From: an uncultured Gammaproteobacteria bacterium
Lineage (GTDB): Bacteria > Patescibacteriota > Microgenomatia > PFEM01 > JAHIFH01
Assembly: GCA_964347135.1 (NCBI GenBank)
Contig: CAYFXA010000003.1
Location: forward strand, 1-63,970
DNA: 63,970 bases
Direction: 5' to 3'
Below the pieces are notes generated by a model. It worked only from the letters and a program-made list of their open reading frames with translations. It searched no databases and had not been told where the DNA came from. Below, in pieces: positions 43,260-63,970 of the stretch. A program made the position numbers and the translations under genes. The number at the start of each line of letters is the position of its first letter. Within the stretch, counting starts at the first letter, position 1.

Positions 43260-43296
43260 TAAATTGTCTCTATTTTAACAAAAAATGGCTTAAATT

Positions 43297-43944: not shown

Positions 43945-43987
43945 TAAATCAATTCTAGCAAAAAGACACCCGAAGGTGTCTCTCTTG

Positions 43988-49334: not shown

Positions 49335-49372
49335 TTCCTCTCAAGTATATCACAGCCATTATTCAGCCCATA

Positions 49373-49402
49373 TTGCGCGTCACAAAATATTTGTGCTAGA
49401 CT
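49373..49402 (+). promoter_or_regulatory. promoter TTGCGC-18-TGCTAGACT, 7 nt upstream of the pilin-1 ATG
   Basis: TAGACTGGATTTGATG (49397-49412) is nearly identical to TAGACTGAATTTGATG upstream of pilin-3. Confidence 0.45.
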
Positions 49403-49409
49403 GGATTTG

Positions 49410-49757
49410 ATGAAAAAAGTCCTTTTATCATTTTTGTTAATTTTCCTCTTTACTTCCCCATTAACCTCAAACGCCCTCGCTGCTGAATGCGTTCCTACTG
49501 CCATTGGTTGCATTGATATCAGTGGCCCCAGTGAGTTTGTTGATACCATCCTAAGATTAGCCATTGGTTTGGCTGGAGGAATTGCTATGCTTCTAATTAT
49601 TTTTGGTGGGATTCAAATCTTAACCTCAGCCGGCAATCCTGAAAGGGTTAAGGCAGGAAAAGAAATGATTACTTCTGCCATCGCCGGTTTACTTTTAATT
49701 ATTTTTTCTGTCTTTATTTTGCGTATAATTGGAGTGCAAATACTAGATATTTTTTAA
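49410..49757 (+). CDS. T4SS pilin-like protein 1 (VirB2/TrbC-type)
   Basis: It has the ATG at 49410 and a signal peptide (MKKVLLSFLLIFLFTSPLTSNALA). The layout is helix-loop-helix, LAGGIAMLLIIFGGIQILTSAGNPERVKAGKEMITSAIAGLLLIIFS. Confidence 0.65.
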   Translation: MKKVLLSFLLIFLFTSPLTSNALAAECVPTAIGCIDISGPSEFVDTILRLAIGLAGGIAMLLIIFGGIQILTSAGNPERVKAGKEMITSAIAGLLLIIFSVFILRIIGVQILDIF

Positions 49758-49758
49758 A

Positions 49759-50070
49759 ATGAAAAAACTAGCTTTAGATCTTCCCGGTGGATACAGCATT
49801 TCGGAACCAGAGGGGTTCAAGTTTGTTGGAGGAAATATTGGTGAAATTATCAACGCTTTGGTTCCCTATATTTTTGCTTTAGCTGGCTTAGTTTTGCTTC
49901 TTATCCTCATCTGGGGCGGCTTTGAAATGATGACTTCTGCTGGTGACCCGAAGAAAATGGAATCGGCCAAAGGAAAGCTAACCAATGCCGTGGCTGGCTT
50001 CATTATTATCTTTGTTGCTTTTTGGCTGGTCCAAATTTTGGAAGTTATTTTCGGGTTGACGATTTTTTAG
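49759..50070 (+). CDS. T4SS pilin-like protein 2
   Basis: 103 aa. LAGLVLLLILIWGGFEMMTSAGDPKKMESAKGKLTNAVAGFIIIFVAFW. The 3' end overlaps convergent uppS by 26 nt. Confidence 0.65.
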   Translation: MKKLALDLPGGYSISEPEGFKFVGGNIGEIINALVPYIFALAGLVLLLILIWGGFEMMTSAGDPKKMESAKGKLTNAVAGFIIIFVAFWLVQILEVIFGLTIF

Positions 50071-50818
50071 AAGGTTTTTTATATACTTCGAATTCGCCTC
50101 CGCCAAAACGCCGAGTCCTTTTTTGATACTCAATAATGGCTTTATCCAGTTTATGAGGAGTGAAAGATGGCCAAAGAGTTTCGGTAAAATAAAGTTCGCT
50201 GTAGGACATCTGCCACAAAAGAAAATTGGAAAGCCTTTTTTCTCCTCCGGTGCGAATAATTAAATCAGGATCAGGCTCACCATTGGTGTAAAGAAAGGTG
50301 CCAAACATTCTTTCATTAATTTTTTCTGGAGGAATTTCTTGATCAATGATTTGCTTGATTGCCATTAAAATCTCGTCCCGACCCCCATAGTTCAAAGCCA
50401 CATTCACTTTTAATCTTTCGTGTTTTATAACAATGGCAAGCATCTCTTTGATGGCCTTAACCACTTTTCGAGGAAAAGCTTGAAAATCACCCAAAACCGC
50501 TAGTTTGACACCTTTTTCTTTGTACTCTTCTTTCCTTTCCTCAACCGCCCTAGTTAAAAGTTTAAATAATCCTTCCACTTCTTTTTTTGCCCTTTTCTTC
50601 CAGTTCTCGGTTGATAAAGCGTAAATCGTTAAAGTTTCCACCCCTAAATCCAAACAGTGCTCAACAATCTTAACCAAAGCCTTAACACCTGCCTCATGAC
50701 CCTGCATCGGCGTCAATCCTTTTTTAGCTGCCCAACGACGATTACCATCCATGATAATGCCAATATGCTTGGGAATTTTTTTCTTATCGAGTTTTGGTCT
50801 AGAAGTTTTCCTCGCCAT
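50045..50818 (-). CDS. uppS: isoprenyl transferase (undecaprenyl-diphosphate synthase family)
   Basis: 257 aa. Motifs are GIIMDGNRRWA, ALSTENW and RTGGEKRLSNFLLWQ. Confidence 0.9.
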   Translation of the reverse strand: MARKTSRPKLDKKKIPKHIGIIMDGNRRWAAKKGLTPMQGHEAGVKALVKIVEHCLDLGVETLTIYALSTENWKKRAKKEVEGLFKLLTRAVEERKEEYKEKGVKLAVLGDFQAFPRKVVKAIKEMLAIVIKHERLKVNVALNYGGRDEILMAIKQIIDQEIPPEKINERMFGTFLYTNGEPDPDLIIRTGGEKRLSNFLLWQMSYSELYFTETLWPSFTPHKLDKAIIEYQKRTRRFGGGEFEVYKKPSKKSSTRK

Positions 50819-50839
50819 GTCGAACGTATTGTACCACGC

Positions 50840-51901
50840 CTAACTCTCTCGCTCAATCATAAAGTCAGCCATATTCGAAAGAGTGTCCACCAATTTAGGA
50901 TTTTGAGTGATTTGAGGAATAAATTTCTTTCCTTTTTCAACCAACCTTCTTGCCATTTTTTGGGAATAATCTAAAGCGCCAGTTTCCTGAGTAATCTTCC
51001 TTACCCTATTAAGTTCTCTTTTGGTCAAGTCTTTGTTCCCATAGGCATTCCTAATGAATTTCTTATCCTCGCCTTTTGCTAATTCCAAAGCTTTAAGATG
51101 AAGAAGGGTAATTTTGTTCTCTTTAACATCACTGCCTATTGGTTTTCCCAAAGTTTTCTCATCGGAAAAAAGTCCCAATTCATCATCTCGAATCTGAAAG
51201 GCAATCCCTACTGGTAAACCATATTTTTCGATTTTTTTAACCTCTTTCTCGTCTGCTCCAGCAAATAAGGCTCCATACTGTAAGGGGCCAGTAATAGTGT
51301 AGTTAGCAGCTTTATAATGATGAACCCTTAAAACATCCTCTTCTGATAGTTTATCCTCGAGTTCATAAGTAAGATCAAGAGCCTGCCCATAAGCAGTGCT
51401 TAATATTTGGTTACTAAAAGCTCTTAATACTCTTGTCTTCACCTTATCACTAAAATCAGAATCGCTCAAAAGAAGATAAGAAAGGGCAAAACCAATATCT
51501 CCCATATCCATTGCCATACTAAGACCGTAGTGATCTCCTTCTCCTTTTTTATATCGTTTCTTATGAAAGTTCTCGTACTGAACATGAATAGTTGGCATTT
51601 TTCTTCTAAGAATATCTCTATCCATAATGTCGTCATGAATCAAAATCCAGGTATGCGTAATCTCAACCATTAAGGAAGCTTTTAAAATCGCTTTTCCGTT
51701 CTTGCTATTAAAGCATTCATAACCTAGTTTAGTTAAACTCCCCCGAATGTTCTTTCCTCCCATATACTTGCGGTAAATTCGCATCATTTCTGCGGTTATT
51801 GGCGAAATCTTGGCCGCCTCTTTTTTTTGGGTTTTGAAAAAAGAATCCAAAATTGGTTCTGTTTTCTTAATATAGTCTTCAAGATAAGCCTTGGCTTGCA
51901 T
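50840..51901 (-). CDS. trans-polyprenyl diphosphate synthase (FPP/GGPP synthase family)
   Basis: Start moved to the ATG at 51901 (MQAKAYLEDY). The first Asp-rich motif is LIHDDIMD and the second is QIRDDELG. Confidence 0.85.
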   Translation of the reverse strand: MQAKAYLEDYIKKTEPILDSFFKTQKKEAAKISPITAEMMRIYRKYMGGKNIRGSLTKLGYECFNSKNGKAILKASLMVEITHTWILIHDDIMDRDILRRKMPTIHVQYENFHKKRYKKGEGDHYGLSMAMDMGDIGFALSYLLLSDSDFSDKVKTRVLRAFSNQILSTAYGQALDLTYELEDKLSEEDVLRVHHYKAANYTITGPLQYGALFAGADEKEVKKIEKYGLPVGIAFQIRDDELGLFSDEKTLGKPIGSDVKENKITLLHLKALELAKGEDKKFIRNAYGNKDLTKRELNRVRKITQETGALDYSQKMARRLVEKGKKFIPQITQNPKLVDTLSNMADFMIERES

Positions 51902-51941
51902 CGAAAAGAGTATAGCGGAAACTCTTCTAAGTTGCAAAAAG

Positions 51942-51971
51942 TTGACAGAGGGAATTTGATATTGATAGACT
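51942..51971 (+). promoter_or_regulatory. sigma70 promoter TTGACA-18-TAGACT, 7 nt upstream of the pilin-3 ATG
   Basis: TTGACAGAGGGAATTTGATATTGATAGACTGAATTTGATG. There is no room for an SD. Confidence 0.55.
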
Positions 51972-51978
51972 GAATTTG

Positions 51979-52305
51979 ATGCAAAAATTGGCCTTCAATA
52001 TTGGCGAAGCGCTTTTTGGAGAACACTCCGGTTTAACACCTTCAATGACTTTGGGCAGCATTATTTCCAATGTCCTGCCAAACATCTATATCTTGGCGGG
52101 GGTGATTCTCTTTTTTTTCCTGATTGGCGGAGGGCTAATGTTCATTTTTAGTGCTGGTCAAGAAAACCCGGAAGGAGCAGCCCAAGGGAAAAAAGCGATT
52201 ACGGGTGCTTTAATTGGTTTCTTGATTATTTTTGCTAGTTATTGGATAATCCAAATAATAGAGTTCGTTACCGGAGTTAATATTTTCGAACCCGGAGGAT
52301 TTTAA
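51979..52305 (+). CDS. T4SS pilin-like protein 3
   Basis: It has the ATG at 51979. LAGVILFFFLIGGGLMFIFSAGQENPEGAAQGKKAITGALIGFLIIFASYW. Confidence 0.65.
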   Translation: MQKLAFNIGEALFGEHSGLTPSMTLGSIISNVLPNIYILAGVILFFFLIGGGLMFIFSAGQENPEGAAQGKKAITGALIGFLIIFASYWIIQIIEFVTGVNIFEPGGF

Positions 52306-52309
52306 TAAA

Positions 52310-52666
52310 ATGCTTGATATTTTTGGCACCATTAGAAATCCTTTAGAAATCATTAATCCTGAGAGACATTATGGTGGCATCACTCAAGCTGAAGGGCGAG
52401 GGTTAATAGATTTTTTAAACAACGTTGTCCGTCTTTTAATTGTGGTTGGCGGTTTGTTCGCTTTCTTTAATCTCATCATCGCTGGATACGGGTTTTTAAG
52501 TGCTGGTGATGATCCCAAAAAAATGGCAGCGGCATGGGCAAGAATCTGGCAATCATTGATGGGGCTTTTGTTTATTGTTGGTGCTTTTGTTTTAGCAGGA
52601 ATTTTTGGTTATCTTTTGTTTGGAGACGCCAGAGCGATCCTTTATCCTAAAATCTACGGACCATGA
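52310..52666 (+). CDS. T4SS pilin-like protein 4
   Basis: 118 aa. VGGLFAFFNLIIAGYGFLSAGDDPKKMAAAWARIWQSLMGLLFIVGAF. Confidence 0.6.
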   Translation: MLDIFGTIRNPLEIINPERHYGGITQAEGRGLIDFLNNVVRLLIVVGGLFAFFNLIIAGYGFLSAGDDPKKMAAAWARIWQSLMGLLFIVGAFVLAGIFGYLLFGDARAILYPKIYGP

Positions 52667-53052
52667 TAGAAAAAGTCTTTGCTGCTGAACTTCCCCTTGG
52701 CCCTATTGGCGGGGGAAAAGAAGAAGGTTTTGGGCCTTTTGGCTATCTTTGGGCGTTTTCTGACGTTGGCGAAGCTGCCAGACAATTTACCTCAATCCTT
52801 TCTAAAATCATTGGGGTGATGACCGTGATTGCCGGCATCTGGTTCTTCTTTATTCTGATGATTGGGGCTTTTGGCTATCTTTCGGCCGGAGGCGACTCAG
52901 AAAAAATAAAGAGCGCTACCCAAAGAATTGGTAATGGCTTAACTGGTTTGGTGGTAATTGTTTTAGCCTACGCTTTTATTTCCCTTATTGGCAGATTGCT
53001 GGGAATTGATATTCTTAATCCCCAGGATGTTATTGATTTATTAGGTCCGTAA
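52663..53052 (+). CDS. T4SS pilin-like protein 5
   Basis: 129 aa with an ATGA overlap to pilin-4. IAGIWFFFILMIGAFGYLSAGGDSEKIKSATQRIGNGLTGLVVIVLAY. Confidence 0.6.
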   Translation: MIEKVFAAELPLGPIGGGKEEGFGPFGYLWAFSDVGEAARQFTSILSKIIGVMTVIAGIWFFFILMIGAFGYLSAGGDSEKIKSATQRIGNGLTGLVVIVLAYAFISLIGRLLGIDILNPQDVIDLLGP

Positions 53053-53059
53053 AGATATC

Positions 53060-53428
53060 ATGATAAAAATCCTTTTAGCTCAAGGAGAGCCACCAGGAAT
53101 CTACAACCCTGCCTTAGATCCTTTTATTGGCAGAGGCGAAGGGGTAACCATTCTTAACACCTTTTTAAGTAATTTCATTAGCATTCTTTTAATCGTTGGC
53201 GTTATTGTTGCTTTTATCTTTCTCGTTATTGGTGCGATTCAATGGATGACCGCTGGTAATGATAAAGCAGCAATGGAATCTGCCAGAGGCAAAGTTATTA
53301 GTGCTATCATTGGCTTGGTTGTTCTCTTCACCGTCTTTGCTATAATAAAAATAATTGGTGCCATCTTTGGCATCGAACAATTAAAGCAATTGTTTTTTGA
53401 TATATCGCCATACTTAATTTCTGATTAG
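53060..53428 (+). CDS. T4SS pilin-like protein 6
   Basis: 122 aa. VGVIVAFIFLVIGAIQWMTAGNDKAAMESARGKVISAIIGLVVLFTVF. Confidence 0.6.
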   Translation: MIKILLAQGEPPGIYNPALDPFIGRGEGVTILNTFLSNFISILLIVGVIVAFIFLVIGAIQWMTAGNDKAAMESARGKVISAIIGLVVLFTVFAIIKIIGAIFGIEQLKQLFFDISPYLISD

Positions 53429-53452
53429 AAAAAGAAGAAAGGGGGTGAAAAG

Positions 53453-53830
53453 GTGAAGAAATTAAAAGAATTAACAAGCTACCTGATGCTTGCTCCGGTT
53501 CTGGCTGCAGAAGATAAAATTATAATCAAACCAGGACCAGAATTTGCAGGTTTGGAGAATATTACTGTTCCAGCCATTATTTCAGCGGCGATTAAATTTA
53601 TTTTGGTTGTTGCTGCTTTAGTCTCCTTCGTTTTCTTAGTAATTGGTGGAATCAGATGGATCACTTCCGCTGGTGACAAAGAAGGAACAGCTAAGGCTCA
53701 AGGGACGATTACAGCGGCTCTGATTGGATTGGTGATTGTTTTTGCTGCTTGGGCAATAATCCGTTTATTGCAAACATTCTTTGGATTGGGACCAATTTTC
53801 GAATTCGAAATTCCAGTAATTGGACAGTAG
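53453..53830 (+). CDS. T4SS pilin-like protein 7
   Basis: 125 aa with a GTG start and an SD (GGGGGTG) 5 nt upstream. It has a signal-like N-terminus. AALVSFVFLVIGGIRWITSAGDKEGTAKAQGTITAALIGLVIVFAAW. Confidence 0.65.
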   Translation: MKKLKELTSYLMLAPVLAAEDKIIIKPGPEFAGLENITVPAIISAAIKFILVVAALVSFVFLVIGGIRWITSAGDKEGTAKAQGTITAALIGLVIVFAAWAIIRLLQTFFGLGPIFEFEIPVIGQ

Positions 53831-53867
53831 AGTAGATTTGATCACTTTAATTAATTAAACCGAACAG

Positions 53868-53899
53868 ACACCTACTCTTGACGGTAGGTGTTTGCTGTT
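53868..53899 (+). terminator. rho-independent terminator-like hairpin after pilin-7
   Basis: ACACCTAC-tcttgacg-GTAGGTGT (8-bp stem) is followed by TTGCTGTTG. Confidence 0.5.
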
Positions 53900-53914
53900 G
53901 TAAAGTGAAAATTA

Positions 53915-54199
53915 ATGGTTGATGACGTTCACGAAATCAAAGATATTGTTGTTATCATTGAAAATATCTTTAGCATTATCATTCGCATTGCCGGAGTCGC
54001 TGCTTTCATCATGTTTATTGTTGGCGGTTTTAGATATTTAACTGCGGGCGGTGACCCTAAAGCGGCTGAATCAGCCAGAGGAACACTAACATACGCCATT
54101 CTTGGTTTGGTTTTGATTATTGCTGCTTGGTTTATTCTTAGATTCATTTCAGAATTTACTGGGGTAACCCAAATTCTTGAGTTTGAATTTAGTCCATAA
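53915..54199 (+). CDS. T4SS pilin-like protein 8
   Basis: 94 aa. IAGVAAFIMFIVGGFRYLTAGGDPKAAESARGTLTYAILGLVLIIAAW. The stop overlaps the next ATG by 1 nt. Confidence 0.65.
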   Translation: MVDDVHEIKDIVVIIENIFSIIIRIAGVAAFIMFIVGGFRYLTAGGDPKAAESARGTLTYAILGLVLIIAAWFILRFISEFTGVTQILEFEFSP

Positions 54200-57100
54200 T
54201 GAAAAAACTGCCCTTTTTACTTTCTTTTTTAACCATTTTCTTTTTAGCAATTATTTATCCATCCCAAACAAACGCCCAGGGATGTGGCGATATCTTTGGC
54301 TCAAATGTAGCAACAAATTGGTATCGCGAGAATCTTGAATTCATTAGAAATCAAGCCAATTGTTCCGGACCCATTCCCATTGAAGTCATTATCACCCCTG
54401 CTGAGAGAGACAACCACCAGCTTCTTTTAGACCTTGAAAAAAATTTAAGAGAACTAAATTTTGTTCCCACCTGGCGACCTTGGGGCAACGGCATGCCTCG
54501 CGGAAGTGAACTTCAAGCTTGGATTGATGCTGCCAGCGTTTTGTCCATTGGCCAATTCCAGCTTTTTAATGAACCTAACAACTGCTATTTTGGCTGCTTT
54601 TCAGGCTCAACACCAGACCCTGTTGCTGATGCCCAGGCAGCCCTTGTTTTTCTTGAGGCTAGTGAACAAGGAAAAATTAAAATTCCTCTTGCCCTAATGC
54701 CATTGTCACCCCGAACACCCAACTATGGCTCTTTTTTATCCGAGCAAAATTATTGGACCCAATTTAACAACGCCTGTGGAGGTTGTGTTAAAGATTTTGA
54801 TTATATTGGCTTAAATGTCTATCCCCTAACTTCACCAGGGGCAAATCCTAATGCGAATGTTGACAAATTCATTAGTGATTTTAGTGCCCAACTTAACTTT
54901 TTTGCCAGTCTGGGTGTTAACACGGCTACCACCAGATTTGTTATCACTGAGGCTGGTCTGGATCCGGGCATGTATGAAGGCAATTTTGAGCAAAGAGTGA
55001 GAGACACCATCGCCTTTGCTCAAGCCCTTGAAGCCAGAGTTAAAGCCGACCCTTCTCTTTTCCTTAATGTTGACCAAATTACTTTCTTCATAATGGACGA
55101 AAACACCAACAAACAATATTTAATTTATCGTCAGTGTGATGATGCCGGAAATTGTGAATGGGTGGTTGACGAATATAAAGTCTATAACATCAATGTCCCT
55201 GGTGTTCCTTTTATTCCTGGAGAATTCAGTCAGCTTGATTGCAATCCTGATTTGACTGGCGAACGAGACTCTCGCCCTTATTACAACATTCCTCAAGAGC
55301 GCGCTTGTGACCTTTGTAACCTTACGGGTCTATTCTGTTCTTCCTGCGCCACTAGTTTTGCGGTTCATGACACCGTAACCTACAAACGTGGTGCCGGAGC
55401 CGAAGAGCCACCCCATTGTGTTGAGAAATCTTGGGAAGGAACCGTTACCATTGACCCAACCAACACCAAAATTCCTTTTGTGGGAAAAAAGGGAGAGGAA
55501 AGTGAAGAAAAATATTTGGCGGATTATTTTGAGGGAACAAATGAGTACTACGAAAACTATTCCCATTATTGGAAAGATTGGATCAATTATGCAGGAGTTT
55601 GGCGAAAGCTATCGCCAATGAGCTATCAAAATATTTTGAAAAAACAGATGGTTGAAAGAGCGGAAAAATCCCTTGCTTTGGGTAATCAACCTCAAGTAGA
55701 AGGTATTCACGATTATCAACTTAATTACATTGGCCGACTCTGTTGGGATGCTCCTTTTTGGATTGAAGTGATTAATACTGTTCTTGGGAAAATTGCTGGG
55801 GCTTTCGGGCTTACCATACCTGATGTAACCAATTTCTGCCTTTTCGAAGATTCAGAAAATCACCCAGAGCAGTTTGCTTTAATTCAAGTATATAAGTATA
55901 CGATTCGCGACCTTCCTTTTATCAACGACCGGTACAATCAGGGAGTTACGGCAACTCTTTCCGAGCTTGAAGAACATCTCCCTCCTGACCCCTTCGAAGA
56001 AAACTACCCTGAAAAATGGGACGAGTGGAAAAAATCAGACGGAGGTAAATGGTATAAACTCTGGCAAGTTGTGCCCATGTTTTCTCATGAAGATACTCCG
56101 GGACAAATTCTTCCCTACCTAGGCTATAAATCAAAAGATGAGCCAAAATTCATCCCACCAGAAGTGGAAAAGGTTCCTCACGTTGCTCGGCTCTATGAAG
56201 CTACTCAAGAAGTACAAACGATGCTAACACCATTTTATCAAGAAGATTTGCTGTTCACCCAAAACAAAGCAAAATCAACCCTTGCTTCGTCAAAAACTTT
56301 TCAGCCAACTACCATTAATCCCACTGAAAAAAATATTTTAGGGGAAAAAGCGCTTTTAGCCCAAGGAGAAGCGTGCCAAGAATGCCCTGAGCTTTCCATC
56401 GCCAATCCTGGTATTTCTAACGGCATGGTTCATTACACTTATTTACTCTGCCATAGTTGTCCTGGTCATGGGGTTATTGGTGATGTTTTTGTTGGTCCTT
56501 GCGGTGGAGTCAGCCAAATGAAAAATATTCCCCCTCCTTGTTTTTCAACCAATCATCCGGCGATTGCTCCACCAGTACCCATCAGTTGTCGAGGAACAGC
56601 CAATATTTGCATTGCTTTTAAGTGTGACTCCTCCGAAGCTTGCCCAGGTTGTTGGGGTCAGTGGCAATCAGAGAGCTGCCAAGTCACAGTTGACGAAGGT
56701 TGTAATATTACTGACACTACTTGTGGAGCTGTTGCGGTTGAACCACCTGTTTGTGGTATCTCTGGACCAGCACCTGTTATGGACTGTGAACAGGCAGCAA
56801 TTACTGACCCAAATGAAAAAGACGATCTCTGTTGTGATCCAATTACCATTACTCTTAATGCGGTTGATGCTTTTGAAAATCCTGAATACGAAAAATGTCG
56901 AGCCGAAGGAATCACCTGTCAACCGCCAGGTTGTATTCCTGGAGTCAGCTGTATTAGTTGTGATAATCCTTGTGAAGAAAAAGTTGAAAAAGCTGTTAGT
57001 CGGCGCTTTGGCATTAACCTTCTTCACCCATATCTCACTGATATTTGGGAACAAACTGGGTTAGCGGAAACCGCTGGCTTGTTTAATTTTTTCCGACCTG

Positions 57101-57294: not shown

Positions 57295-57323
57295 GGGTGT
57301 TATTGTTAAACTAATCTTTAACT

Positions 57324-58874: not shown

Positions 58875-58879
58875 CAAAA

Positions 58880-59065
58880 GTGGAAAAAAAAGAAGACTTT
58901 AGTCCAGAAGAAGCCATAAAAGAATCCCTAAAACCAGCAAAAGGAGCAGCTAAATTTGGAATAGGTTATTTCGCTAACAAAGTTGGAGGAAAACCTGCCT
59001 CAAGTGAGGCCGGCAGAGTCTTTAAAAAAATTGTTGACGTTTTAGGATGGTCTTCTGAAAAATAG
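58880..59065 (+). CDS. small hypothetical protein
   Basis: 61 aa, GTG start 5 nt after the upstream stop, Lys/Gly-rich. Coding status is uncertain. Confidence 0.3.
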   Translation: MEKKEDFSPEEAIKESLKPAKGAAKFGIGYFANKVGGKPASSEAGRVFKKIVDVLGWSSEK

Positions 59066-59070
59066 AATTT

Positions 59071-60735
59071 TCACTCCACTTCTCCAAAAGGGGCCCCACT
59101 CGCTACTTGAGCGGCCTTTGCTTCGTTTGCCTCTTCCCCACCCCATCTCTTTTTAAGTTTCTCTTTTGAAAAATCTTGTTTAGAAGCCGCTGCTGCTCCT
59201 TTAACAAGAAGTTCCGATATTCTTAATTTTTCGGCATCAGCCATCTTATTTAAATCCCCCCATGTTCTATCAGGAAAACGGCTGTATTCGCCTTCGGTAA
59301 TCAAATAAGGAGCAACAACAATATTAAAAGCTTTGTTCATTTCTCTCCAAGTAACAGGGTTGGCCATAAGGCTAGCATCCCACTTTTCTCTAGTCAAAGC
59401 CTCAAAAAGACCACTAATTCCACCTTCACTTTTTCTGCCAGCAAAGAAAATTCGGAGACAATAATCATACCAGGCGTACTTCGGCATTTTTCCCCAGGGC
59501 AATTCTCCTAGTTTTTTTTCCTCATTCCACCACAATTCCCAAAAGGAACGAATGTTTTGACAGCTAACATCATCCTCTGGTTCATAAGGAGTTCGGAGAT
59601 AGTGTAAGAAATCAACAGCTAATCGGGAGCTTGTGTCTTTAACGGTCTTATCAGGACCATGTAAGTGACCAGCACCTGCTTCCAATTCTCTTCTTAATTT
59701 GGGCCAGAAAATCTTTCTCCTGTCATCGGCAACAGGAAAACCGCCTAATTTCTCTTTTCCATCAACCTCTCCTCTGGCGAAGGTAGTGGCAATACCCCAT
59801 AAACGAAAGATTCGCCAAGCCAATTGTTCCGCTGCTTCATCTCCACCCAATTTTTCAAGAACAAAATCTCGCATTTCTTCTAATTTATCTTCAGGTGGGT
59901 CAGCTACAAAAAGATTTTTCAAACCTAGTTGCCATTGTCGTATCCATTCTCTATCTTCTTGGCTTATCATGTTTCTCAACCAAGGTCTGTTATTCAGTTC
60001 TTGTTCAAACCGTTCTTCATCAAAACTCATTGCCAAAGCGGTAAACCAGCGCATTCCCTTATCAATTTTGTCTCCAAAAGCAGGTTCTCCCTCTTTTGTT
60101 AACGGAGCCTTAAACAAAGTTCCCCAAACATATTTTGAATCCAGCAAAGTATAATCTTTATATTTCAAAAATAAGGCGGCTATAGAAGGTAAATCATCAT
60201 CTACACCCTCAAAAACATCCAGGGCTGTATTAAGATCATTTCGGGCATCGAACTCTTCTCTCAACCTTTTTACTTCTTCGAAAAAAGCTTCTTGCTCAAC
60301 ACTTTTTGGAGAAATATCCTCAAGTTCCCATTTTTTTTCGTCCAAAACACCCCTCGTTTGGTCAACAATAATGTAACTGAACCGACCTCCTAAACCCTCC
60401 AATCCCCCTAACAACCTTCTGAAATGAAATCTCATATCTTCGAGTGTTTTTGCTCTTTCCATATTTTCAACTTGTTTCATTCCATAGCCTCGAACAAAAA
60501 AAGGCCTTTCTCCCTCTGGCCAGAGCGGAGCAGGCTCTTCTTCGTCAGGGCCCTGTCCTCCCATAATTGGTCTTTCTTCAACCATTTTTCTTATTCTTGC
60601 TTCTTGTTCTTCTTTTGCCATTTCCGCTGCCCTTTCTACTTCTAGTTCATCGCGTTCTTCTGCGCTTAGCGGTTTTGGTCTTTCTTCAACCATGTTTTCT
60701 TCGGGCATGTTTGGTGTAATTTTCCTTTCAATCAA
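59071..60735 (-). CDS. hypothetical soluble Glu/Arg/Trp-rich protein, no recognisable family
   Basis: 554 aa with no hydrophobic helix and an acidic N-terminus (EERDELEVERAAEMAKEEQEARIRKMVEE). It is Trp-rich (WELWWNEEKKLGELPWGKMPKYAWYDY). It is the only minus-strand gene between the VirB6-like and PrgI-like genes. Confidence 0.6.
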   Translation of the reverse strand: MIERKITPNMPEENMVEERPKPLSAEERDELEVERAAEMAKEEQEARIRKMVEERPIMGGQGPDEEEPAPLWPEGERPFFVRGYGMKQVENMERAKTLEDMRFHFRRLLGGLEGLGGRFSYIIVDQTRGVLDEKKWELEDISPKSVEQEAFFEEVKRLREEFDARNDLNTALDVFEGVDDDLPSIAALFLKYKDYTLLDSKYVWGTLFKAPLTKEGEPAFGDKIDKGMRWFTALAMSFDEERFEQELNNRPWLRNMISQEDREWIRQWQLGLKNLFVADPPEDKLEEMRDFVLEKLGGDEAAEQLAWRIFRLWGIATTFARGEVDGKEKLGGFPVADDRRKIFWPKLRRELEAGAGHLHGPDKTVKDTSSRLAVDFLHYLRTPYEPEDDVSCQNIRSFWELWWNEEKKLGELPWGKMPKYAWYDYCLRIFFAGRKSEGGISGLFEALTREKWDASLMANPVTWREMNKAFNIVVAPYLITEGEYSRFPDRTWGDLNKMADAEKLRISELLVKGAAAASKQDFSKEKLKKRWGGEEANEAKAAQVASGAPFGEVE

Positions 60736-60848
60736 ATTATACTATACCACTTTAAATAATCAAAGAATTGCTCTATTTTGCTTGTAATTTGACCTATTAT
60801 GAGCTGGTTGAATTGAAAAACACCAGTGTCTACAATAAAAAAGTAACC

Positions 60849-61841
60849 ATGGAACAACATCCTGTCCCACAACACATTTCTTCTTATCAATTCCGTTTGA
60901 TCGGTGACATGACCATTAAGCAGTTCGGCATGTTGGCGAGTGGCTGCATTATTGGTTTAATCCTTTATGCCTCACCCCTTGCTTCTCTTGTTAAATGGCC
61001 CCTGATTGTTCTCTCAATTGCCCTGGGTGTTGCCCTTGCTTTTGTTCCGGTTCAAGAAAGACCATTGGATCAATGGATTATGGCTTTTGTCAAAGCCATT
61101 TTCTCACCCACTCAATTTGCTTGGAAAAAACAACCTAAGAAATTAGAAATGTTCAAAACTACTCCTAAGAAAAAATTGTTTCGAAAAGCACCAACACCGC
61201 CGCCAGACAGAAAACAACTGACCGAATATCTTGCCACTCTGCCCACAGAACCCAAAAGCACCCTTGATCAGCAAGAAGAAAATTTTGTTAAAAAAGCGGT
61301 CAATATGTTTCAGTTAGCCAAAATGCCTTCGCCAAAACCAGTACCCAGTATCCCTCCAATGCCAACTCAACCAGTTCAGCCCGTTCCTCGAAAACCAAAA
61401 CCAACCTACAAACCAAAGGTTTCTCCTCCAGTAAAACCAATTACTCCTCCAAAGAAAAAACGAGTGGTTTTACCTGAAGAACCAGGTCGTCCCAAAAAGC
61501 CAAAGGTTAAAGCCAAGTTCAGTCCGGAACTGCCTTTTCCTGAACGACCTTCTCAACCTAACACTCTGGTGGGCATGGTTCTTGACCCGCAAGGCAAAAT
61601 CATTGAAGGAGCGATAATTGAAATCAGGGACAGTCAAGGTATTCCCGTAAGAGCCTTAAAAACCAATAAATTAGGCCAATTTCGAAGCGTTACCCCTTTG
61701 GAAGATGGTCAGTACGAAATCGAAATCGAAAAAGAAACTTATTTATTTGATATTCTCAAAATTAAATTAACCGGCGCGGTAGTTGAACCTTTAGAAATCC
61801 GCGCCAAAGGAAAAGCCAGTGGACCTGCCCAAAACGCTTGA
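60849..61841 (+). CDS. PrgI/VirB3-like membrane protein fused to a Pro/Lys-rich linker and a carboxypeptidase-regulatory-like beta-sandwich
   Basis: It has the ATG at 60849. MEQHPVPQHISSYQFRLIGDMTIKQFGMLASGCIIGLILY matches the PrgI-family start (VP..I....k.iG.lT.kQF plus 2 TM). The linker is PKPVPSIPPMPTQPVQPVPRKPKP... The C-terminal part is GMVLDPQGKIIEGAIIEIRDSQG..KTNKLGQF..LEDGQYEIEI. Confidence 0.65.
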   Translation: MEQHPVPQHISSYQFRLIGDMTIKQFGMLASGCIIGLILYASPLASLVKWPLIVLSIALGVALAFVPVQERPLDQWIMAFVKAIFSPTQFAWKKQPKKLEMFKTTPKKKLFRKAPTPPPDRKQLTEYLATLPTEPKSTLDQQEENFVKKAVNMFQLAKMPSPKPVPSIPPMPTQPVQPVPRKPKPTYKPKVSPPVKPITPPKKKRVVLPEEPGRPKKPKVKAKFSPELPFPERPSQPNTLVGMVLDPQGKIIEGAIIEIRDSQGIPVRALKTNKLGQFRSVTPLEDGQYEIEIEKETYLFDILKIKLTGAVVEPLEIRAKGKASGPAQNA

Positions 61842-62697
61842 CCCAACCAAAATACCTATTCGCGCTTCTACCCAAGAGCATTTGGATATCGAAGATATCC
61901 AAGATGGTATTGTCATTCTTAAAGATGGCAGTTGCTGTTTGGTTATTGCCACAACAGCGATTAATTTTGGCTTGCTTTCAGAAAAAGAACAAGAAGCAAC
62001 CATCTATGCCTACGCTGGCCTTCTAAACTCCCTTACTTTTTCCATTCAAATCGTTCTTCGTTCTCAAAGAAAAGACATTTCTGGCTACGTCAAACTGGTT
62101 AGGCAAGCCGAGGAAAAAGAAACCAAAAAAGAAATCAAGGCTCAAATTCAAAAATATCGTCAATTTATTGAGGAAACCGTGGCTAAAAATGAAGTCCTTG
62201 ATAAAAAATTCTACCTTGTTATTCCCATGAGCGCCTTGGAGCTCGGAGTTAAACAAGCGCTTACCTCTGCTTTTGCCAGGAAAAAACTACCCTTTGACAA
62301 AGACTACATTTTACAAAAAGCAAAAACCAATCTTTATCCCAAGCGAGACCACGTTCTGCGCCAAGTAGCTCGTTTGGGGCTCAAAGGAAAACAACTTAAC
62401 ACTCAAGAACTAATCCAGCTTTTCTTTAATGTTTACAACCCTGAGGTTAAAGGCCAGCAAATAACCACCGCAGGCCAATATCAAAGACCAATGGTTGAAC
62501 CAGCCATGGCCAAAGCAGAAGAGGTTCCAACTATCCCAACCCAACCAAGTCCGATTGGTAAAGAAAAAAATCAAGAAACAGAGGTAAGAAAACCTTCCCA
62601 ATTTCCAAAAGAAATTGAAGTAGAAACCAAACCAGCTAAAGAAGAATCAATTCAAAATCAAATTGATGGCTTAATCAAAAAAGCGGTTAATAAATGA
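61819..62697 (+). CDS. hypothetical protein resembling the N-terminal (non-ATPase) domain of Gram-positive VirB4/ORF16-type proteins
   Basis: 292 aa with a GTG start overlapping the upstream gene by 23 nt. IEDIQDGIVILKDGSCCLVIATTAINFGLLSEKEQEATIYAYAGLLNSLTFSIQIVLRSQ follows the pattern I recall for VirB4 N-domains. No Walker motifs. Confidence 0.4.
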   Translation: MDLPKTLDPTKIPIRASTQEHLDIEDIQDGIVILKDGSCCLVIATTAINFGLLSEKEQEATIYAYAGLLNSLTFSIQIVLRSQRKDISGYVKLVRQAEEKETKKEIKAQIQKYRQFIEETVAKNEVLDKKFYLVIPMSALELGVKQALTSAFARKKLPFDKDYILQKAKTNLYPKRDHVLRQVARLGLKGKQLNTQELIQLFFNVYNPEVKGQQITTAGQYQRPMVEPAMAKAEEVPTIPTQPSPIGKEKNQETEVRKPSQFPKEIEVETKPAKEESIQNQIDGLIKKAVNK

Positions 62698-63970
62698 AAC
62701 TACCAATTATTGGCAAAAAGGTTTCAAAAGAAAAAAAAGAAGAAAAGGCAAAAGCTCCTTCCCCTCAAGTAGCGGCTACTGAAGGCGTTACTAGGCCAGT
62801 GGTTGACCCTCTTTCCCAACTTAGTCAGGGAATGGTTTCGGTCCAAGATGTGATTGCTCCTGGCGCTCTTGAAGTTGATTTTGACCACCTTAAAATTGGC
62901 AATAAATACTTTCGAACCTTGTTTGTTGCTGGTTATCCCCGCTTTGTTGCTGCTAACTGGCTGGCTTCCTTAATTAACTTCGACCATTCACTTGATGTAG
63001 CGATGTATATCTACCCTGTTGAAGGAAAATCTGTTCTTGATGAATTACGCCGAAAAATTGCGGAGATGGAAGCGGAAATCCAAACCGATATCCAGCGAGG
63101 GAAAATCGTTGACCCTGCCACTCAAGCCAAACTCGAAGACGCCCGTAATCTCCAGGAACAGTTAGTTAAAGGAGCGGAGCGCTTTTTCCAATTTGGTCTT
63201 TACATCACCATCCCCGCTGATTCTCTTGAAGAACTTAACCAAGTTTCTAAAGAAGTTGAATCTGCCCTTGGTGCTTTGCTAATTGTTTCCAAACACGCCA
63301 CTCTTCAAATGGAAGATGGCTTTAAAGCTACCATTCCCACCATGGTTGACCGCTTAATGATTACTCGCAATATGGACACCACCTCTTTGGCCACCACCTT
63401 TCCTTTTACTTCATCAGAATTAACCGCCAATGAAGGCATTATGTACGGCATCAATGACCACAATGACTCTTTAGTTGTTTTTGACCGTTTTACTTTGGAA
63501 AACGCCAATTCAGTTATTTTTGGTAAGTCGGGTGGAGGTAAATCTTACATGGTCAAACTCGAAGCTCTTCGTTCTCTTTTGTTTGGCACGGAAGTAATTA
63601 TTATTGACCCAGAAAAAGAATATGAAGCCTTAGCCAAAGTCGTGGGGGGTGAATACATTACCTTTGGTTTTGACTCCCCTTCCAAAATTAATCCTTTTGA
63701 TTTATCCGCGGTTTACGAGGAAGGTGAGAATGAACTGGGACTAAAAATCCTTTCCCTTCACTCTTTGTTTAAAGTAATTATGGGTAAACTCACGGCTACT
63801 GAAGAAGCAGTTCTTGACCGGGCTTTAATCTTAACCTACAGAATGAAAGGAATTACCCCTGACCCCGCTACTCAAAAAAAAGAGCCACCCTTAATGGAAG
63901 ATTTGTACAAAGCCTTGCGAGGAATGGAAGAACCAGAAGCAACCACTCTTGCTGACCGAATTGAAAAATT
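62694..63970 (+). CDS. VirB4/TrbE-like T4SS ATPase, N-terminal ~425 aa (continues past right edge)
   Basis: Not in the ORF track because it is open at the edge. An ATGA overlap joins it to the upstream stop. MKLPIIGKK...DVIAPGALEVDFDHLKIGNKYFRTLFVAGYPRFV...Walker A VIFGKSGGGKSY...IIIDPEKEY. Confidence 0.8.
   Translation, partial: MKLPIIGKKVSKEKKEEKAKAPSPQVAATEGVTRPVVDPLSQLSQGMVSVQDVIAPGALEVDFDHLKIGNKYFRTLFVAGYPRFVAANWLASLINFDHSLDVAMYIYPVEGKSVLDELRRKIAEMEAEIQTDIQRGKIVDPATQAKLEDARNLQEQLVKGAERFFQFGLYITIPADSLEELNQVSKEVESALGALLIVSKHATLQMEDGFKATIPTMVDRLMITRNMDTTSLATTFPFTSSELTANEGIMYGINDHNDSLVVFDRFTLENANSVIFGKSGGGKSYMVKLEALRSLLFGTEVIIIDPEKEYEALAKVVGGEYITFGFDSPSKINPFDLSAVYEEGENELGLKILSLHSLFKVIMGKLTATEEAVLDRALILTYRMKGITPDPATQKKEPPLMEDLYKALRGMEEPEATTLADRIEK

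What the first reader, a model, noticed from the sequence alone, without database searches (positions are those of the whole stretch)
49373..63970. Chromosomal type-IV-secretion-like locus with eight pilin paralogs and no visible DNA-processing genes
**Seen in sequence.** Eight 94-129 aa ORFs share one design: hydrophobic helix, G(G)xxx(L/M)(T/S)(S/A)(A)G(D/N)(P)xK loop, second hydrophobic helix.

Downstream on the same strand lie:
- a 1031-aa secreted protein
- a 516-aa polytopic membrane protein
- a PrgI/VirB3-like protein (VPQHISSYQFRLIGDMTIKQF plus 2 TM)
- a VirB4-N-domain-like protein
- a Walker-A (GKSGGGKS) VirB4-like ATPase cut by the window edge

**Established.** VirB2, VirB3, VirB4 and VirB6 form the conserved T4SS core. 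PrgI is the VirB3 equivalent of Gram-positive (monoderm) systems.

**Inference.**
- The set mixes a monoderm-type core with a very large VirB2-like pilin repertoire.
- In 14.5 kb it lacks a relaxase, a coupling protein, a lysozyme/NlpC-type wall hydrolase and any integrase.
- It sits among housekeeping genes.
- This fits a dedicated surface filament or injection machine, for host-cell attachment, DNA uptake or effector delivery in an episymbiont, better than a conjugative element.
- The function of such a machine is not established.
Basis: partly seen in the sequence, partly recalled or inferred. Interest (0 to 1): 0.85.

Follow-up and report, generated by a model that had tools for sequence, protein, structure and literature searches.

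The report
Known Patescibacteria type IV secretion locus
This is a real chromosomal type IV secretion gene cluster with eight pilin-like genes from an ultra-small 'CPR' (Microgenomatia) bacterium, but the same kind of system, including its pilin arrays and missing DNA-transfer genes, was already described in 2023-2025 papers.

Summary
Eight small + strand ORFs (49407-54199) all match Pfam PF18895 (T4SS_pilin) above its curated cut-off. Downstream lie a PrgI/VirB3-like protein, a TrsD/VirB4-N-domain-like protein and a VirB4 ATPase cut by the contig end.

The 516-aa membrane protein is only weakly VirB6-like: it matches by predicted fold, not by sequence.

Closely related genomes show what the window misses. 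After VirB4 come a large cell-wall hydrolase (M23 in the closest relatives; elsewhere CHAP, amidase or none recognised), one small gene, then dnaN-dnaA. No relaxase, coupling protein or integrase was seen there or in the 64-kb window.

A conserved SpoIID gene also sits just upstream, and the 1031-aa protein starts with a glycoside-hydrolase-like TIM barrel.

This is the Patescibacteria-clade T4SS already published by Wang 2023 and Quiñonero-Coronel 2025, including arrays of 2-11 pilins in Microgenomatia, absence of a relaxase and proximity to dnaA.

Additions from this work:
- The eight pilins are 1:1 positional orthologues across species.
- All eight resemble a Mycoplasma ICE pilin-like protein.
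- The operon runs head-on to replication.

Function remains unproven.

The parts
47640..49334 (-). 564-aa secreted coiled-coil + SpoIID/LytB-domain protein, transcribed divergently from the first pilin. Candidate peptidoglycan remodeller associated with the locus.
   Evidence: Pfam SpoIID 72.7 bits. NCBIfam SpoIID_LytB 153.8 bits, with a weak PcsB/EnvC-like coiled coil. Same position in relatives L092, L093 and L032. Whether it belongs to the T4SS is inferred from synteny only.
49407..49757 (+). Pilin paralogue 1 (116 aa; the gene call starts at 49410). It has a Sec-type signal-like N-terminus.
   Evidence: PF18895 37.3 bits. Hydrophobic N-terminus plus 2 TM segments. Positional orthologue in L092/L093, 60-76% identity.
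49759..50070 (+). Pilin paralogue 2 (103 aa).
   Evidence: PF18895 54.6 bits. NF045849 Mycoplasma ICE pilin-like protein, E 2.9e-10, 39.7 bits against a cut-off of 40. Orthologues 78-83% identical. The L092 orthologue also has a weak precomputed TrbC hit.
50045..51937 (-). uppS (50045-50818) and polyprenyl synthase (50840-51937; the gene call ends at 51901). These are housekeeping isoprenoid-carrier genes embedded between pilins 2 and 3 and are not recognisable T4SS parts.
   Evidence: Precomputed Pfam Prenyltransf and polyprenyl_synt. uppS holds the same position in L092, L093 and L032; the polyprenyl synthase is present in L092 but absent from L093.
51976..52305 (+). Pilin paralogue 3 (109 aa).
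   Evidence: PF18895 30.7 bits. Best promoter-like site of the region lies just upstream at 51942-51971, but such sites are not enriched over shuffles. Orthologues 75-80% identical.
52310..52666 (+). Pilin paralogue 4 (118 aa).
   Evidence: PF18895 28.8 bits. Orthologues 71-81% identical.
52663..53052 (+). Pilin paralogue 5 (129 aa). Its start overlaps the stop of paralogue 4.
   Evidence: PF18895 33.3 bits and a weak TrbC hit, E 0.59. Orthologues 63-75% identical.
53060..53428 (+). Pilin paralogue 6 (122 aa).
   Evidence: PF18895 34.1 bits. Orthologues 68-77% identical.
53453..53830 (+). Pilin paralogue 7 (125 aa), with a signal-like N-terminus.
   Evidence: PF18895 35.6 bits. Orthologues 63-69% identical.
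53915..54199 (+). Pilin paralogue 8 (94 aa, the shortest). Its stop overlaps the start of the next gene.
   Evidence: PF18895 56.2 bits. NF045849 E 1.4e-6. TAATG junction at 54199.
54199..57294 (+). 1031-aa secreted protein in three parts: a signal peptide; a variable N-terminal GH-clan-A-like TIM barrel (about residues 35-325, NEP at 124-126, E251); and a conserved Cys-rich C-terminal module of about 690 aa with unknown fold. Candidate pilus-associated or surface factor.
   Evidence: No Pfam, NCBIfam or PDB sequence hit. Some homologues carry PF00150 or PF11790. AF2 mean pLDDT 80. Foldseek matches TIM barrels including GH5 glucanases and mannanases, E 4e-4 to 4e-3. Catalytic-type N-E and E are conserved where the domain is present; the C-terminal module is present in 66 of 67 sequences.
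57324..58874 (+). 516-aa polytopic membrane protein, VirB6-like by position and predicted fold only.
   Evidence: No Pfam, NCBIfam or PDB sequence hit. AF2 mean pLDDT 81. The top four Foldseek PDB hits are all TrwI/VirB6 of R388 (prob 0.92-0.98, E 0.07-0.2, TM 0.40-0.42 on the target). hhalign against four VirB6 sequences gives no signal. Found upstream of prgI in 43 of 85 loci.
58880..59065 (+). 61-aa soluble protein of unknown role.
   Evidence: ORF. Called in the source contig. 64% identical counterpart in L093, none detectable in L092.
59071..60735 (-). 554-aa acidic soluble protein on the opposite strand (the gene call is 545 aa, 59071-60708). It belongs to a fast-evolving lineage-restricted family of unknown function.
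   Evidence: No TM segment. No Pfam, NCBIfam or PDB hit. Only 43 cluster representatives among 1.84 billion proteins. A minus-strand gene of 542-768 aa holds the same position in L002, L003, L092 and L093.
60768..61841 (+). PrgI/VirB3-like protein (the gene call is 60849-61841, 330 aa). It has 2 TM segments, a long Lys/Pro-rich linker and a C-terminal CarboxypepD_reg-like beta-sandwich.
   Evidence: Pfam PrgI 31.7 bits against a cut-off of 27; CarboxypepD_reg 28.1 bits, below its cut-off of 32.3. Same two-domain annotation in relatives. prgI found in 80 of 85 loci.
61819..62697 (+). 292-aa TrsD/TraC-like protein, that is, the N-terminal domain of VirB4 encoded as a separate gene. Its stop overlaps the VirB4 start (ATGA).
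   Evidence: NCBIfam hits to CD1110 VirB4 positions 11-123, Mycoplasma VirB4 positions 128-291 and TrsD, E 4.5e-5, all far below their cut-offs. Precomputed PF26593. Found in 78 of 85 loci.
62694..63970 (+). VirB4-family ATPase: the first 425 of an expected 620-645 residues, cut by the contig end. Walker A is at 63522-63545.
   Evidence: Pfam CagE_TrbE_VirB 26.5 bits against a cut-off of 21, plus P-loop_TraG and AAA_10. NCBIfam CD1110 family 258.9 bits over model positions 179-568. PDB 4AG5 VirB4, E 9e-18. Full-length homologues are 88-90% identical.

Best explanation
The region is the vertically inherited, origin-proximal chromosomal type IV secretion system typical of Patescibacteria (CPR), here from a member of the class Microgenomatia. 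It is not a mobile element.

**Shown**
- Eight anciently diverged VirB2-like two-helix membrane proteins.
- A PrgI/VirB3-like anchor.
- A VirB4 ATPase whose N-terminal domain is a separate TrsD-like gene.
- A VirB6-like polytopic protein (predicted fold only).
- A secreted 1031-aa protein with a glycoside-hydrolase-like barrel.
- In relatives, a large wall hydrolase directly after VirB4, M23 in the closest ones.

**Inferred mechanism**
- The VirB4 hexamer docks on PrgI and the VirB6-like platform.
- It extracts the pilins from the membrane and polymerises them into a tube or short conduit through the cell wall.
- Passage through the wall is opened by the M23/CHAP hydrolase, and possibly by the SpoIID-type enzyme.
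- The 1031-aa protein, translationally coupled to the last pilin, acts at the distal end or surface to bind or cut host-surface glycans.
- The apparatus mediates contact-dependent exchange with the host cell on which the bacterium lives. This means export of proteins or import of host macromolecules, not conjugation.
For: **Component identities.**

**Fixed chromosomal position.**
- prgI-trsD-virB4 is followed by dnaN(-) within 0.05-7.2 kb (median about 3.3 kb) in 58 loci fetched from GTDB species representatives and metagenome contigs.
- DnaA boxes cluster in the dnaN-dnaA spacer of L003.
- Four close relatives have the same gene order from SmpB to the M23 gene.

**No sign of a mobile element.**
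- No relaxase, T4CP or integrase family appeared among the ORFs between VirB4 and dnaN (for the small ORFs only 25 of 43 families were listed), nor among the window ORFs of 100 aa or more that were checked.
- GC content of the locus (0.38-0.42) equals that of the rest of the window.

**Purifying selection on distinct pilins.** Each of the eight has its best match at the same array position in two other species. Orthologues are 60-83% identical; paralogues are 18-40%.

**Literature.**
- In the saccharibacterium Southlakia epibionticum, the same kind of T4SS and its pilin array are essential for epibiotic growth. That system also lacks recognisable coupling and relaxase proteins (PMC10633639).
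- The first cultivated Microgenomatia strain shows tubular structures reaching the host that may be T4SS pili (bioRxiv 10.64898/2026.06.21.733656).
Against: - No experiment bears on this organism, and the function of the system is called completely unknown even in Saccharibacteria (PMC11665869).
- Direct similarity of the pilins to bona fide VirB2/TrbC is weak.
  - Pfam TrbC best E is 0.59.
  - A profile search finds no VirB2 in the PDB.
  - hhalign gives P = 0.009 against 0.18-0.31 for reversed controls.
- The VirB6 assignment rests on marginal Foldseek E-values and fails at the sequence-profile level.
- The glycosidase reading rests on a predicted fold that also matches non-glycosidase TIM barrels.
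- A coupling protein could be encoded elsewhere in the genome. Only one 64-kb contig is available, and T4CP homologues far from virB4 are common in Patescibacteria (PMC12102498).
- VirB4 is truncated, so its integrity cannot be checked here.
Confidence: 0.75

Rival explanations
1. The machine works inward. It is an uptake conduit that pulls host nucleic acid (RNA or DNA) or other cytoplasmic material into the nucleotide-auxotrophic epibiont, by analogy with the Helicobacter ComB and archaeal Ced T4SS-like importers. This differs from the best explanation only in direction and cargo.
For: - No coupling protein or relaxase lies near the locus.
- VirB4 has weak NCBIfam similarity to CedB, E 9e-7.
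- Uptake is proposed in PMC11665869.
- A cultivated Microgenomatia strain takes up host RNA and shows tubular structures that may be T4SS pili (bioRxiv 10.64898/2026.06.21.733656).
Against: - Nothing in the sequence sets the direction of transport.
- The CedB hit is far weaker than the hit to conjugative CD1110 VirB4, 27.8 against 258.9 bits.
- In Southlakia, competence runs through ComEC and type IV pili, and deleting comEC does not affect viability (PMC10633639, PMC12857230).
- The RNA-uptake paper states that the mechanism is unresolved.
Confidence: 0.2
2. The eight small proteins are not subunits of an extended pilus. They are membrane-embedded or short-stalk channel components, like the homologous small protein of wall-less Mycoplasma ICEs.
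For: - All eight match NF045849, the Mbov_0395 family pilin-like conjugal transfer protein of Mycoplasma ICEs, over nearly the whole 80-position profile, E 3e-10 to 2e-3. That is stronger than any match to diderm VirB2/TrbC.
- Six of the eight lack a recognisable signal peptide.
- Gram-positive T4SSs generally lack pili (PMC10633639, PMC12857230).
Against: - Eight conserved, non-redundant paralogues and a translationally coupled secreted 1031-aa protein fit a built extracellular structure better than a simple channel lining.
- Tubular structures have been seen in a Microgenomatia co-culture (bioRxiv 10.64898/2026.06.21.733656).
- All NF045849 scores are below the model's cut-off.
Confidence: 0.2
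3. The locus is an integrated conjugative element or its remnant, with the DNA-processing genes lying just beyond the contig end.
For: - The VirB4, PrgI and TrsD families come from conjugative MPF_FATA systems.
- The window stops inside VirB4.
- A minority of Patescibacteria genomes do carry relaxases (PMC12102498).
Against: - In relatives, the sequence beyond VirB4 is a wall hydrolase, one small gene, then dnaN-dnaA-rnpA-yidC.
- The VirB4-to-dnaN arrangement holds in 58 loci.
- No relaxase, T4CP or integrase families were reported.
- Base composition is native.
- Housekeeping uppS sits inside the array in several species.
Confidence: 0.03

Closest known systems
Patescibacteria-clade T4SS, as in Southlakia epibionticum ML1 (SEML1_0006-0019; Wang et al. 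2023, PMC10633639) and as surveyed by Quiñonero-Coronel et al. 2025 (PMC12102498)
   Same: - Chromosomal location.
- MPF_FATA-type VirB4, with PrgI/VirB3 and a TrsD-like protein next to VirB4.
- A tandem array of divergent VirB2-like pilins. The paper reports arrays of 2-11 genes with mean identity 25%; here there are 8 with mean 27%.
- A peptidase or hydrolase downstream of VirB4.
- No relaxase or coupling protein nearby.
- dnaA/dnaN proximity in Microgenomatia.
   Different: - It comes from a different class (Microgenomatia, not Saccharimonadia).
- The array is split 2 + 6 by uppS and a polyprenyl synthase.
- The VirB6-like protein is undetectable by HMM, as the paper notes for this class.
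- The 1031-aa and 554-aa proteins matched no Pfam, NCBIfam or PDB family in the searches run here, and were not looked for in the cited papers.
- There are no genetic data for this lineage.
Gram-positive conjugative T4SS of the MPF_FATA class (CTn2 CD1110-type VirB4; pGO1 TrsD/TrsE; pCF10 PrgI; VirB1-like CHAP/M23 hydrolases)
   Same: - Best VirB4 model is the CD1110 family, 258.9 bits over the part present.
- PrgI family membership.
- A separate TrsD-like VirB4-N-domain gene.
- A large wall hydrolase beside VirB4 in relatives.
- No outer-membrane core genes.
   Different: - No relaxase, T4CP or adhesin of the PrgB type.
- Eight pilin-like genes are present, whereas these systems are generally pilus-less.
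- Fixed position next to the replication origin instead of on a plasmid or ICE.
Mycoplasma ICE transfer genes (Mbov_0395 pilin-like protein NF045849; Mbov_0397 VirB4 NF045975)
   Same: - All eight pilins align to NF045849 over nearly its full length.
- The TrsD-like protein and VirB4 align colinearly to NF045975, positions 128-291 and 281-670.
- This suggests that the small two-helix protein already belonged to monoderm MPF_FATA-type systems.
   Different: - All scores are below the curated cut-offs, so these are relatives and not members.
- Mycoplasma ICEs are mobile.
- No Mycoplasma ICE locus could be fetched and examined here, so their copy number of the small protein and their DNA-processing genes were not checked.
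VirB/D4 T4SS of Agrobacterium (VirB2 T-pilus), and the multi-VirB2 loci of Bartonella and Anaplasma
   Same: - Small two-helix pilin with a short charged loop.
- The VirB3-VirB4-VirB6 logic.
- Multiple VirB2 paralogues occur in host-associated bacteria (cited in PMC12102498).
   Different: - Sequence similarity to real VirB2/TrbC is marginal.
- No VirB5 and no VirB7-VirB11.
- The organism is monoderm.
- The paralogues here are ancient and positionally conserved rather than recent variable copies.
DNA-uptake T4SS-like systems (Helicobacter ComB; archaeal Ced)
   Same: - VirB4-driven and not dependent on a relaxase.
- Weak CedB/CedD similarity of VirB4.
   Different: - Much weaker similarity than to conjugative VirB4.
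- No ComB- or Ced-specific components were found.

Membership tests
Pfam PF18895 T4SS_pilin | Whole-protein HMM score at or above the gathering score (26.6 bits) | tested here: met
   All eight ORFs score 28.8-56.2 bits. The precomputed annotation of the source contig agrees.
TrbC/VirB2 pilins (Pfam PF04956) | Significant sequence or profile similarity to bona fide VirB2/TrbC | tested here: inconclusive
   - The best Pfam TrbC hit is 10.8 bits, E 0.59, against a cut-off of 27.9.
- A profile search finds no VirB2 in the PDB.
- hhalign of 46 CPR pilins against 6 annotated VirB2/TrbC gives P = 0.009 over 61 colinear columns spanning both helices. Reversed controls give P = 0.18-0.31 over 7-17 columns.
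- One orthologue in L092 has a weak precomputed TrbC hit.
TrbC/VirB2 pilins (Pfam PF04956) | Two hydrophobic helices joined by a short positively charged loop; about 70-90 residues in the mature part | tested here: met
   Two strong hydrophobic segments per protein. The loop carries K/R residues.
TrbC/VirB2 pilins (Pfam PF04956) | Leader cleavage and assembly into an extracellular helical filament | not testable with these tools
   Only pilins 1 and 7 have a signal-peptide-like N-terminus.
VirB4 ATPase | CagE_TrbE_VirB domain plus a P-loop NTPase with Walker A | tested here: met
   PF03135 26.5 bits against a cut-off of 21; PF19044 49.6 bits. GKSGGGKS at 63522-63545. PDB 4AG5, E 9e-18. Walker B and the C-terminus lie beyond the contig end.
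PrgI (VirB3 equivalent of Gram-positive T4SS) | Pfam PF12666 at or above the gathering score; two TM helices; gene next to VirB4 | tested here: met
   31.7 bits against a cut-off of 27. TM segments at 57-95. Separated from VirB4 only by the TrsD-like gene.
TrsD/TraD family (NF041427) / TraC-like (PF26593) | Score above the curated cut-off; similarity to the VirB4 N-terminal domain | tested here: inconclusive
   NF041427 scores 23.4 bits against a cut-off of 200, so it is not a member of that model. It does align to the N-terminal parts of two VirB4 models, and PF26593 is precomputed for it.
VirB6/TrbL | Sequence-profile similarity to VirB6 | tested here: not met
   No Pfam or NCBIfam hit. A profile search of the PDB finds no VirB6. 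hhalign against four VirB6 sequences gives P = 0.49, no better than reversed controls.
VirB6/TrbL | Polytopic helical fold like TrwI/VirB6; gene inside a T4SS operon | tested here: inconclusive
   AF2 mean pLDDT 81. The top four Foldseek PDB hits are TrwI/VirB6, prob 0.92-0.98, but E is 0.07-0.2 and TM is 0.25 on the query and 0.40-0.42 on the target. The position between the pilins and prgI is conserved.
Patescibacteria-clade chromosomal T4SS (PMC12102498) | MPF_FATA-type VirB4 with TrsD, PrgI and a VirB2-like array nearby | tested here: met
   No VirB4 phylogeny was computed here. The closest homologues are all from Patescibacteria/Microgenomates.
Patescibacteria-clade chromosomal T4SS (PMC12102498) | No relaxase or T4CP near virB4; conserved chromosomal context (dnaN/dnaA in Microgenomatia) | tested here: met
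   None in the window. None was reported between VirB4 and dnaN in relatives. dnaN lies downstream of VirB4 in 58 loci. The context of this very contig beyond VirB4 is not available.
Integrative conjugative element | Relaxase, coupling protein, integrase, variable insertion site, deviant composition | tested here: not met
   No such families were found. Fixed position. GC content 0.38-0.42, like the rest of the window. T4CP elsewhere in the genome is not testable.
Glycoside hydrolase clan GH-A (GH5-like), N-terminal domain of the 1031-aa protein | (beta/alpha)8 barrel with the acid/base Glu after strand 4 (NEP) and the nucleophile Glu after strand 7 | tested here: inconclusive
   - The window protein has no Pfam hit, but homologues carry PF00150 or PF11790.
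- The AF2 model shows eight strand-helix units.
- NEP at 124-126 follows strand 119-121, and E251 ends strand 246-252. Both are conserved where the domain is present.
- Foldseek E 4e-4 to 4e-3 to GH5/GH1 enzymes, but equally to sugar epimerases and aldolases.

The most novel reading that the evidence does not exclude
The eight positionally conserved, anciently diverged pilins build an ordered multi-subunit tube tipped by the glycan-cutting 1031-aa protein. Microgenomatia would use this tube as a feeding conduit: it pierces the host envelope and imports host cytoplasmic macromolecules such as RNA. It would be a T4SS running as an importer that is essential for cell growth.
Probability: 0.15. 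Interest if true: 0.85.

Novelty: already known. Interest (0 to 1): 0.3.

Why it matters
The Patescibacteria T4SS is one of the few machines shown to be essential for the epibiotic life of these ultra-small bacteria, and its cargo and direction are still unknown. That open question is of real interest.

This window only adds another example of a published system. Three modest additions could guide experiments in the newly cultivated Microgenomatia strain:
- The eight pilins form a fixed, orthologous set rather than variable copies.
- The pilins resemble a Mycoplasma ICE protein. The pilin may therefore have come with the monoderm T4SS rather than from a diderm one.
- Relatives show where the wall hydrolase and the replication origin lie.

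Tried and rejected
**Searches and comparisons without a useful result**
- Sequence search of the PDB with the 1031-aa, 516-aa and 554-aa proteins: no hits.
- Pilin profile against the PDB: no VirB2/TraA-type chain, only chance membrane matches.
- Profile of the 516-aa family against the PDB: no VirB6. hhalign against four annotated VirB6 proteins: no signal above reversed controls. I therefore do not file it as a VirB6 family member.
- 554-aa minus-strand protein: a full HMMER scan of 1.84 billion representatives gave only 43 relatives. A profile search of the PDB and a Pfam scan of 33 members gave nothing. Its function stays unexplained.
- Promoter and terminator scans of the locus were no richer than shuffles, so I draw no operon map from them.
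- The look-up of the 795-aa PBP by exact sequence failed because the gene call differs. The left part of the window was annotated by Pfam instead.

**Readings considered and rejected**
- ICE or conjugative element: see the rival explanations.
- Recent tandem amplification or antigenic-variation cassette: rejected because each paralogue has its own orthologue in other species.
- Foreign origin: the base composition is native.

**Not done**
- A structure or multimer prediction of the pilins. The two prediction jobs went to the 516-aa and 1031-aa proteins.

Full report
**1. What is in the sequence**

The region holds eight + strand ORFs of 94-129 aa.
- Every one matches Pfam PF18895 (T4SS_pilin) above the curated cut-off, at 28.8-56.2 bits.
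- A profile built from them finds exactly these eight among all 339 ORFs of the window.
- Each has two strong hydrophobic segments joined by a short loop of the type ...T/S-A/S-G-D/N-P-x-K....
- The paralogues are only 18-40% identical, mean 27%.
- The array is split 2 + 6 by uppS and a polyprenyl synthase on the other strand.

Downstream on the + strand:
- A 1031-aa secreted protein.
- A 516-aa polytopic protein.
- A 61-aa protein.
- A PrgI-family protein, 31.7 bits against a cut-off of 27, with a Lys/Pro-rich linker and a CarboxypepD_reg-like domain.
- A 292-aa protein that aligns to the N-terminal part of VirB4 models and to TrsD (PF26593).
- A VirB4 ATPase: CagE_TrbE_VirB, TraG P-loop and AAA_10; CD1110 family at 258.9 bits; PDB 4AG5. 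Its Walker A lies at 63522-63545.

A 554-aa acidic soluble protein is encoded on the minus strand between the 61-aa gene and prgI.

The TrsD-like protein covers model positions 11-123 of the CD1110 VirB4 model, and the VirB4 gene starts at about position 179. The two genes overlap (ATGA). VirB4 is therefore in effect split into two genes.

The window ends where the source contig ends, so VirB4 is cut by the assembly.

**2. What lies beyond the edge**

VirB4 homologues of 83-90% identity are full length at 620-645 aa.

Four loci from close relatives (L002, L003, L092, L093) carry the same gene order: SmpB, a 640-aa protein, DUF5657, a bPH protein, SpoIID(-), two pilins, uppS(-), six pilins, an 830-1030-aa protein, a ~511-aa membrane protein, a small gene, a 542-768-aa minus-strand gene, PrgI, TraC-like and VirB4.

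After VirB4 come an 841-935-aa M23 peptidase and a ~350-aa protein. In L002 and L003, whose fetched sequence reaches further, these are followed by dnaN(-), dnaA(-), rnpA and yidC.

In 80 loci from GTDB species representatives plus the window and metagenome loci (85 sources scanned):
- prgI was found in 80, trsD in 78, dnaN in 64 and dnaA in 63.
- In 58 loci the gap from VirB4 to dnaN is 0.05-7.2 kb, median about 3.3 kb. It usually holds one large and one small + strand ORF.
- Of 44 large ORFs, 13 carry M23, 11 CHAP, 3 Amidase_2, and single ones NlpC/P60, VanY or Peptidase_C39_2.
- Neither set showed relaxase, coupling-protein or integrase families. For the small ORFs only 25 of 43 families were listed.
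- A cluster of DnaA-box-like sites lies in the dnaN-dnaA spacer of L003.

**3. Context in the window**

The other genes checked are mostly housekeeping, with a few of unknown function and no mobile-element genes: NrdD, two class A PBPs, glycolytic enzymes, DnaG, RpoD, NifU/cysteine desulfurase, seven tRNAs, tmRNA and SmpB.

GC content is uniform.

Left of the locus, 38 of 46 long ORFs are on the minus strand. With the origin a few kb to the right, the T4SS operon is transcribed head-on to replication.

**4. The unannotated proteins**

*516-aa protein*
- It has hundreds of homologues, none with a Pfam domain.
- The AlphaFold2 model has mean pLDDT 81.
- Its four best PDB matches are all TrwI/VirB6 of the R388 T4SS, but with marginal statistics.
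- Sequence-profile tests against VirB6 fail.
- I call it VirB6-like by fold and position only.

*1031-aa protein*
- Its model has mean pLDDT 80.
- It starts with a (beta/alpha)8 barrel that matches GH5/GH1 enzymes, and also other TIM barrels.
- NEP after strand 4 and a Glu after strand 7 fit the GH clan A pattern. Both are conserved in the roughly half of 67 family members that have this domain.
- The conserved part of the family is the Cys-rich C-terminal ~690 residues, of unknown fold.

*554-aa protein*
- It belongs to a small, fast-evolving family with no detectable relatives of known function.

**5. The pilins**

- Direct similarity to diderm VirB2/TrbC is weak. An hhalign comparison with six annotated VirB2/TrbC proteins fetched from plasmids gives P = 0.009 over both helices, against 0.18-0.31 for reversed controls.
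- All eight match the NCBIfam model for a pilin-like conjugal transfer protein of Mycoplasma ICEs over nearly its whole length, E 3e-10 to 2e-3, all just or well below the cut-off.
- This suggests the small protein was already part of monoderm MPF_FATA-type systems. That nuances the published idea that it was co-opted from diderm systems.
- Each window pilin has its best match at the same array position in two other species, at 60-83% identity.
- The eight-member set is therefore old and maintained. That argues for distinct roles rather than recent amplification.
- Surface-exposed or membrane parts evolve faster than VirB4. Against L092, the 1031-aa protein is 47% identical and the 516-aa protein 52%, while VirB4 is 88%.

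**6. Comparison with what is known**

- Wang et al. 2023 (PMC10633639) found an essential T4SS in Southlakia epibionticum. It has a series of essential predicted pilins and no recognisable coupling or relaxase proteins.
- Quiñonero-Coronel et al. 2025 (PMC12102498) surveyed 3,035 Patescibacteria genomes. They describe the following:
  - a monophyletic VirB4 clade nested in MPF_FATA;
  - TrsD, PrgI and rare relaxases;
  - 441 arrays of 2-11 VirB2-like genes, most abundant in Microgenomatia and Saccharimonadia;
  - scarce VirB6 hits in Microgenomatia;
  - dnaA/dnaN proximity.
- A 2025 review repeats this account (PMC12857230).
- Function is still open. Effector delivery or uptake of host material has been proposed (PMC11665869).
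- A 2026 preprint on the first cultivated Microgenomatia strain reports tubular structures that may be T4SS pili, together with host RNA uptake (10.64898/2026.06.21.733656).

**7. Verdict**

The exception is the missing wall hydrolase, which is an effect of the contig end.

The system is already known, so the finding is a further instance and not a discovery.

Noticed in passing
window 49407-63970; L002 and L003 (dnaN/dnaA at about +5.5 to +7 kb from the VirB4 start): The T4SS operon is on the + strand and points toward dnaN-dnaA, where DnaA boxes cluster in relatives. 38 of 46 other long ORFs in the window are on the minus strand. The 14.5-kb operon therefore appears to be transcribed head-on to replication, right next to the origin, and the convergent VirB4-dnaN arrangement recurs in 58 loci.
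   Followed up: partly
window 50045-51937 (-): uppS and a polyprenyl synthase sit inside the pilin array. uppS holds this place in relatives L092, L093 and L032; the polyprenyl synthase is present in L092 but absent from L093. Whether lipid-carrier synthesis is functionally tied to the T4SS is unknown.
   Followed up: partly
window 47640-54199 compared with L092 and L093: Identities are mosaic. SpoIID is 82.5% identical to L092 but 39% to L093. Pilins 5-7 are also closer to L092. Most other genes (the 640-aa protein, pilins 1-4 and 8, the 1031-aa C-terminal module, the 516-aa protein, PrgI, TrsD) are closer to L093. This hints at recombination within the locus between lineages.
   Followed up: no
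window 60768-61841: The PrgI/VirB3-like protein carries an extension of about 240 residues. It consists of a Lys/Pro-rich linker followed by a CarboxypepD_reg-like beta-sandwich, and is conserved in relatives. The positive charge after TM2 suggests a cytoplasmic location, but the topology is untested.
   Followed up: no
L003 8843-9205 and L004 826-1188: A 120-aa 23S_rRNA_IVP (PF05635) gene is inserted between prgI and the TraC-like gene in one relative.
   Followed up: no
loci L005-L084: Many GTDB representative MAGs that carry this Microgenomatia-type locus have record titles such as 'uncultured Gammaproteobacteria', 'Bathyarchaeia archaeon', 'Methanoperedens', 'Clostridia' or 'Nevskiaceae'. 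Given 60-88% VirB4 identity and shared synteny, these titles look like mislabelled taxonomy or mis-binned contigs.
   Followed up: no
window 41645-44787 (-): Dense RNA gene cluster: four tRNA-Ser, two tRNA-Arg, then tmRNA directly next to smpB.
   Followed up: no
window 6652-13114: Two tandem class A penicillin-binding proteins (751 and 795 aa) are followed by a bestrophin-like protein and a class A beta-lactamase-family protein.
   Followed up: no
window 13546-14322 (+): A 258-aa protein carries an archaeo-eukaryotic primase small-subunit domain (PF01896, E 7e-11). The window also holds a bacterial DnaG.
   Followed up: no
window 3070-5680 (+): A 684-aa protein without any Pfam match is followed by a 198-aa cohesin-domain protein. 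This may be another surface or adhesion module.
   Followed up: no
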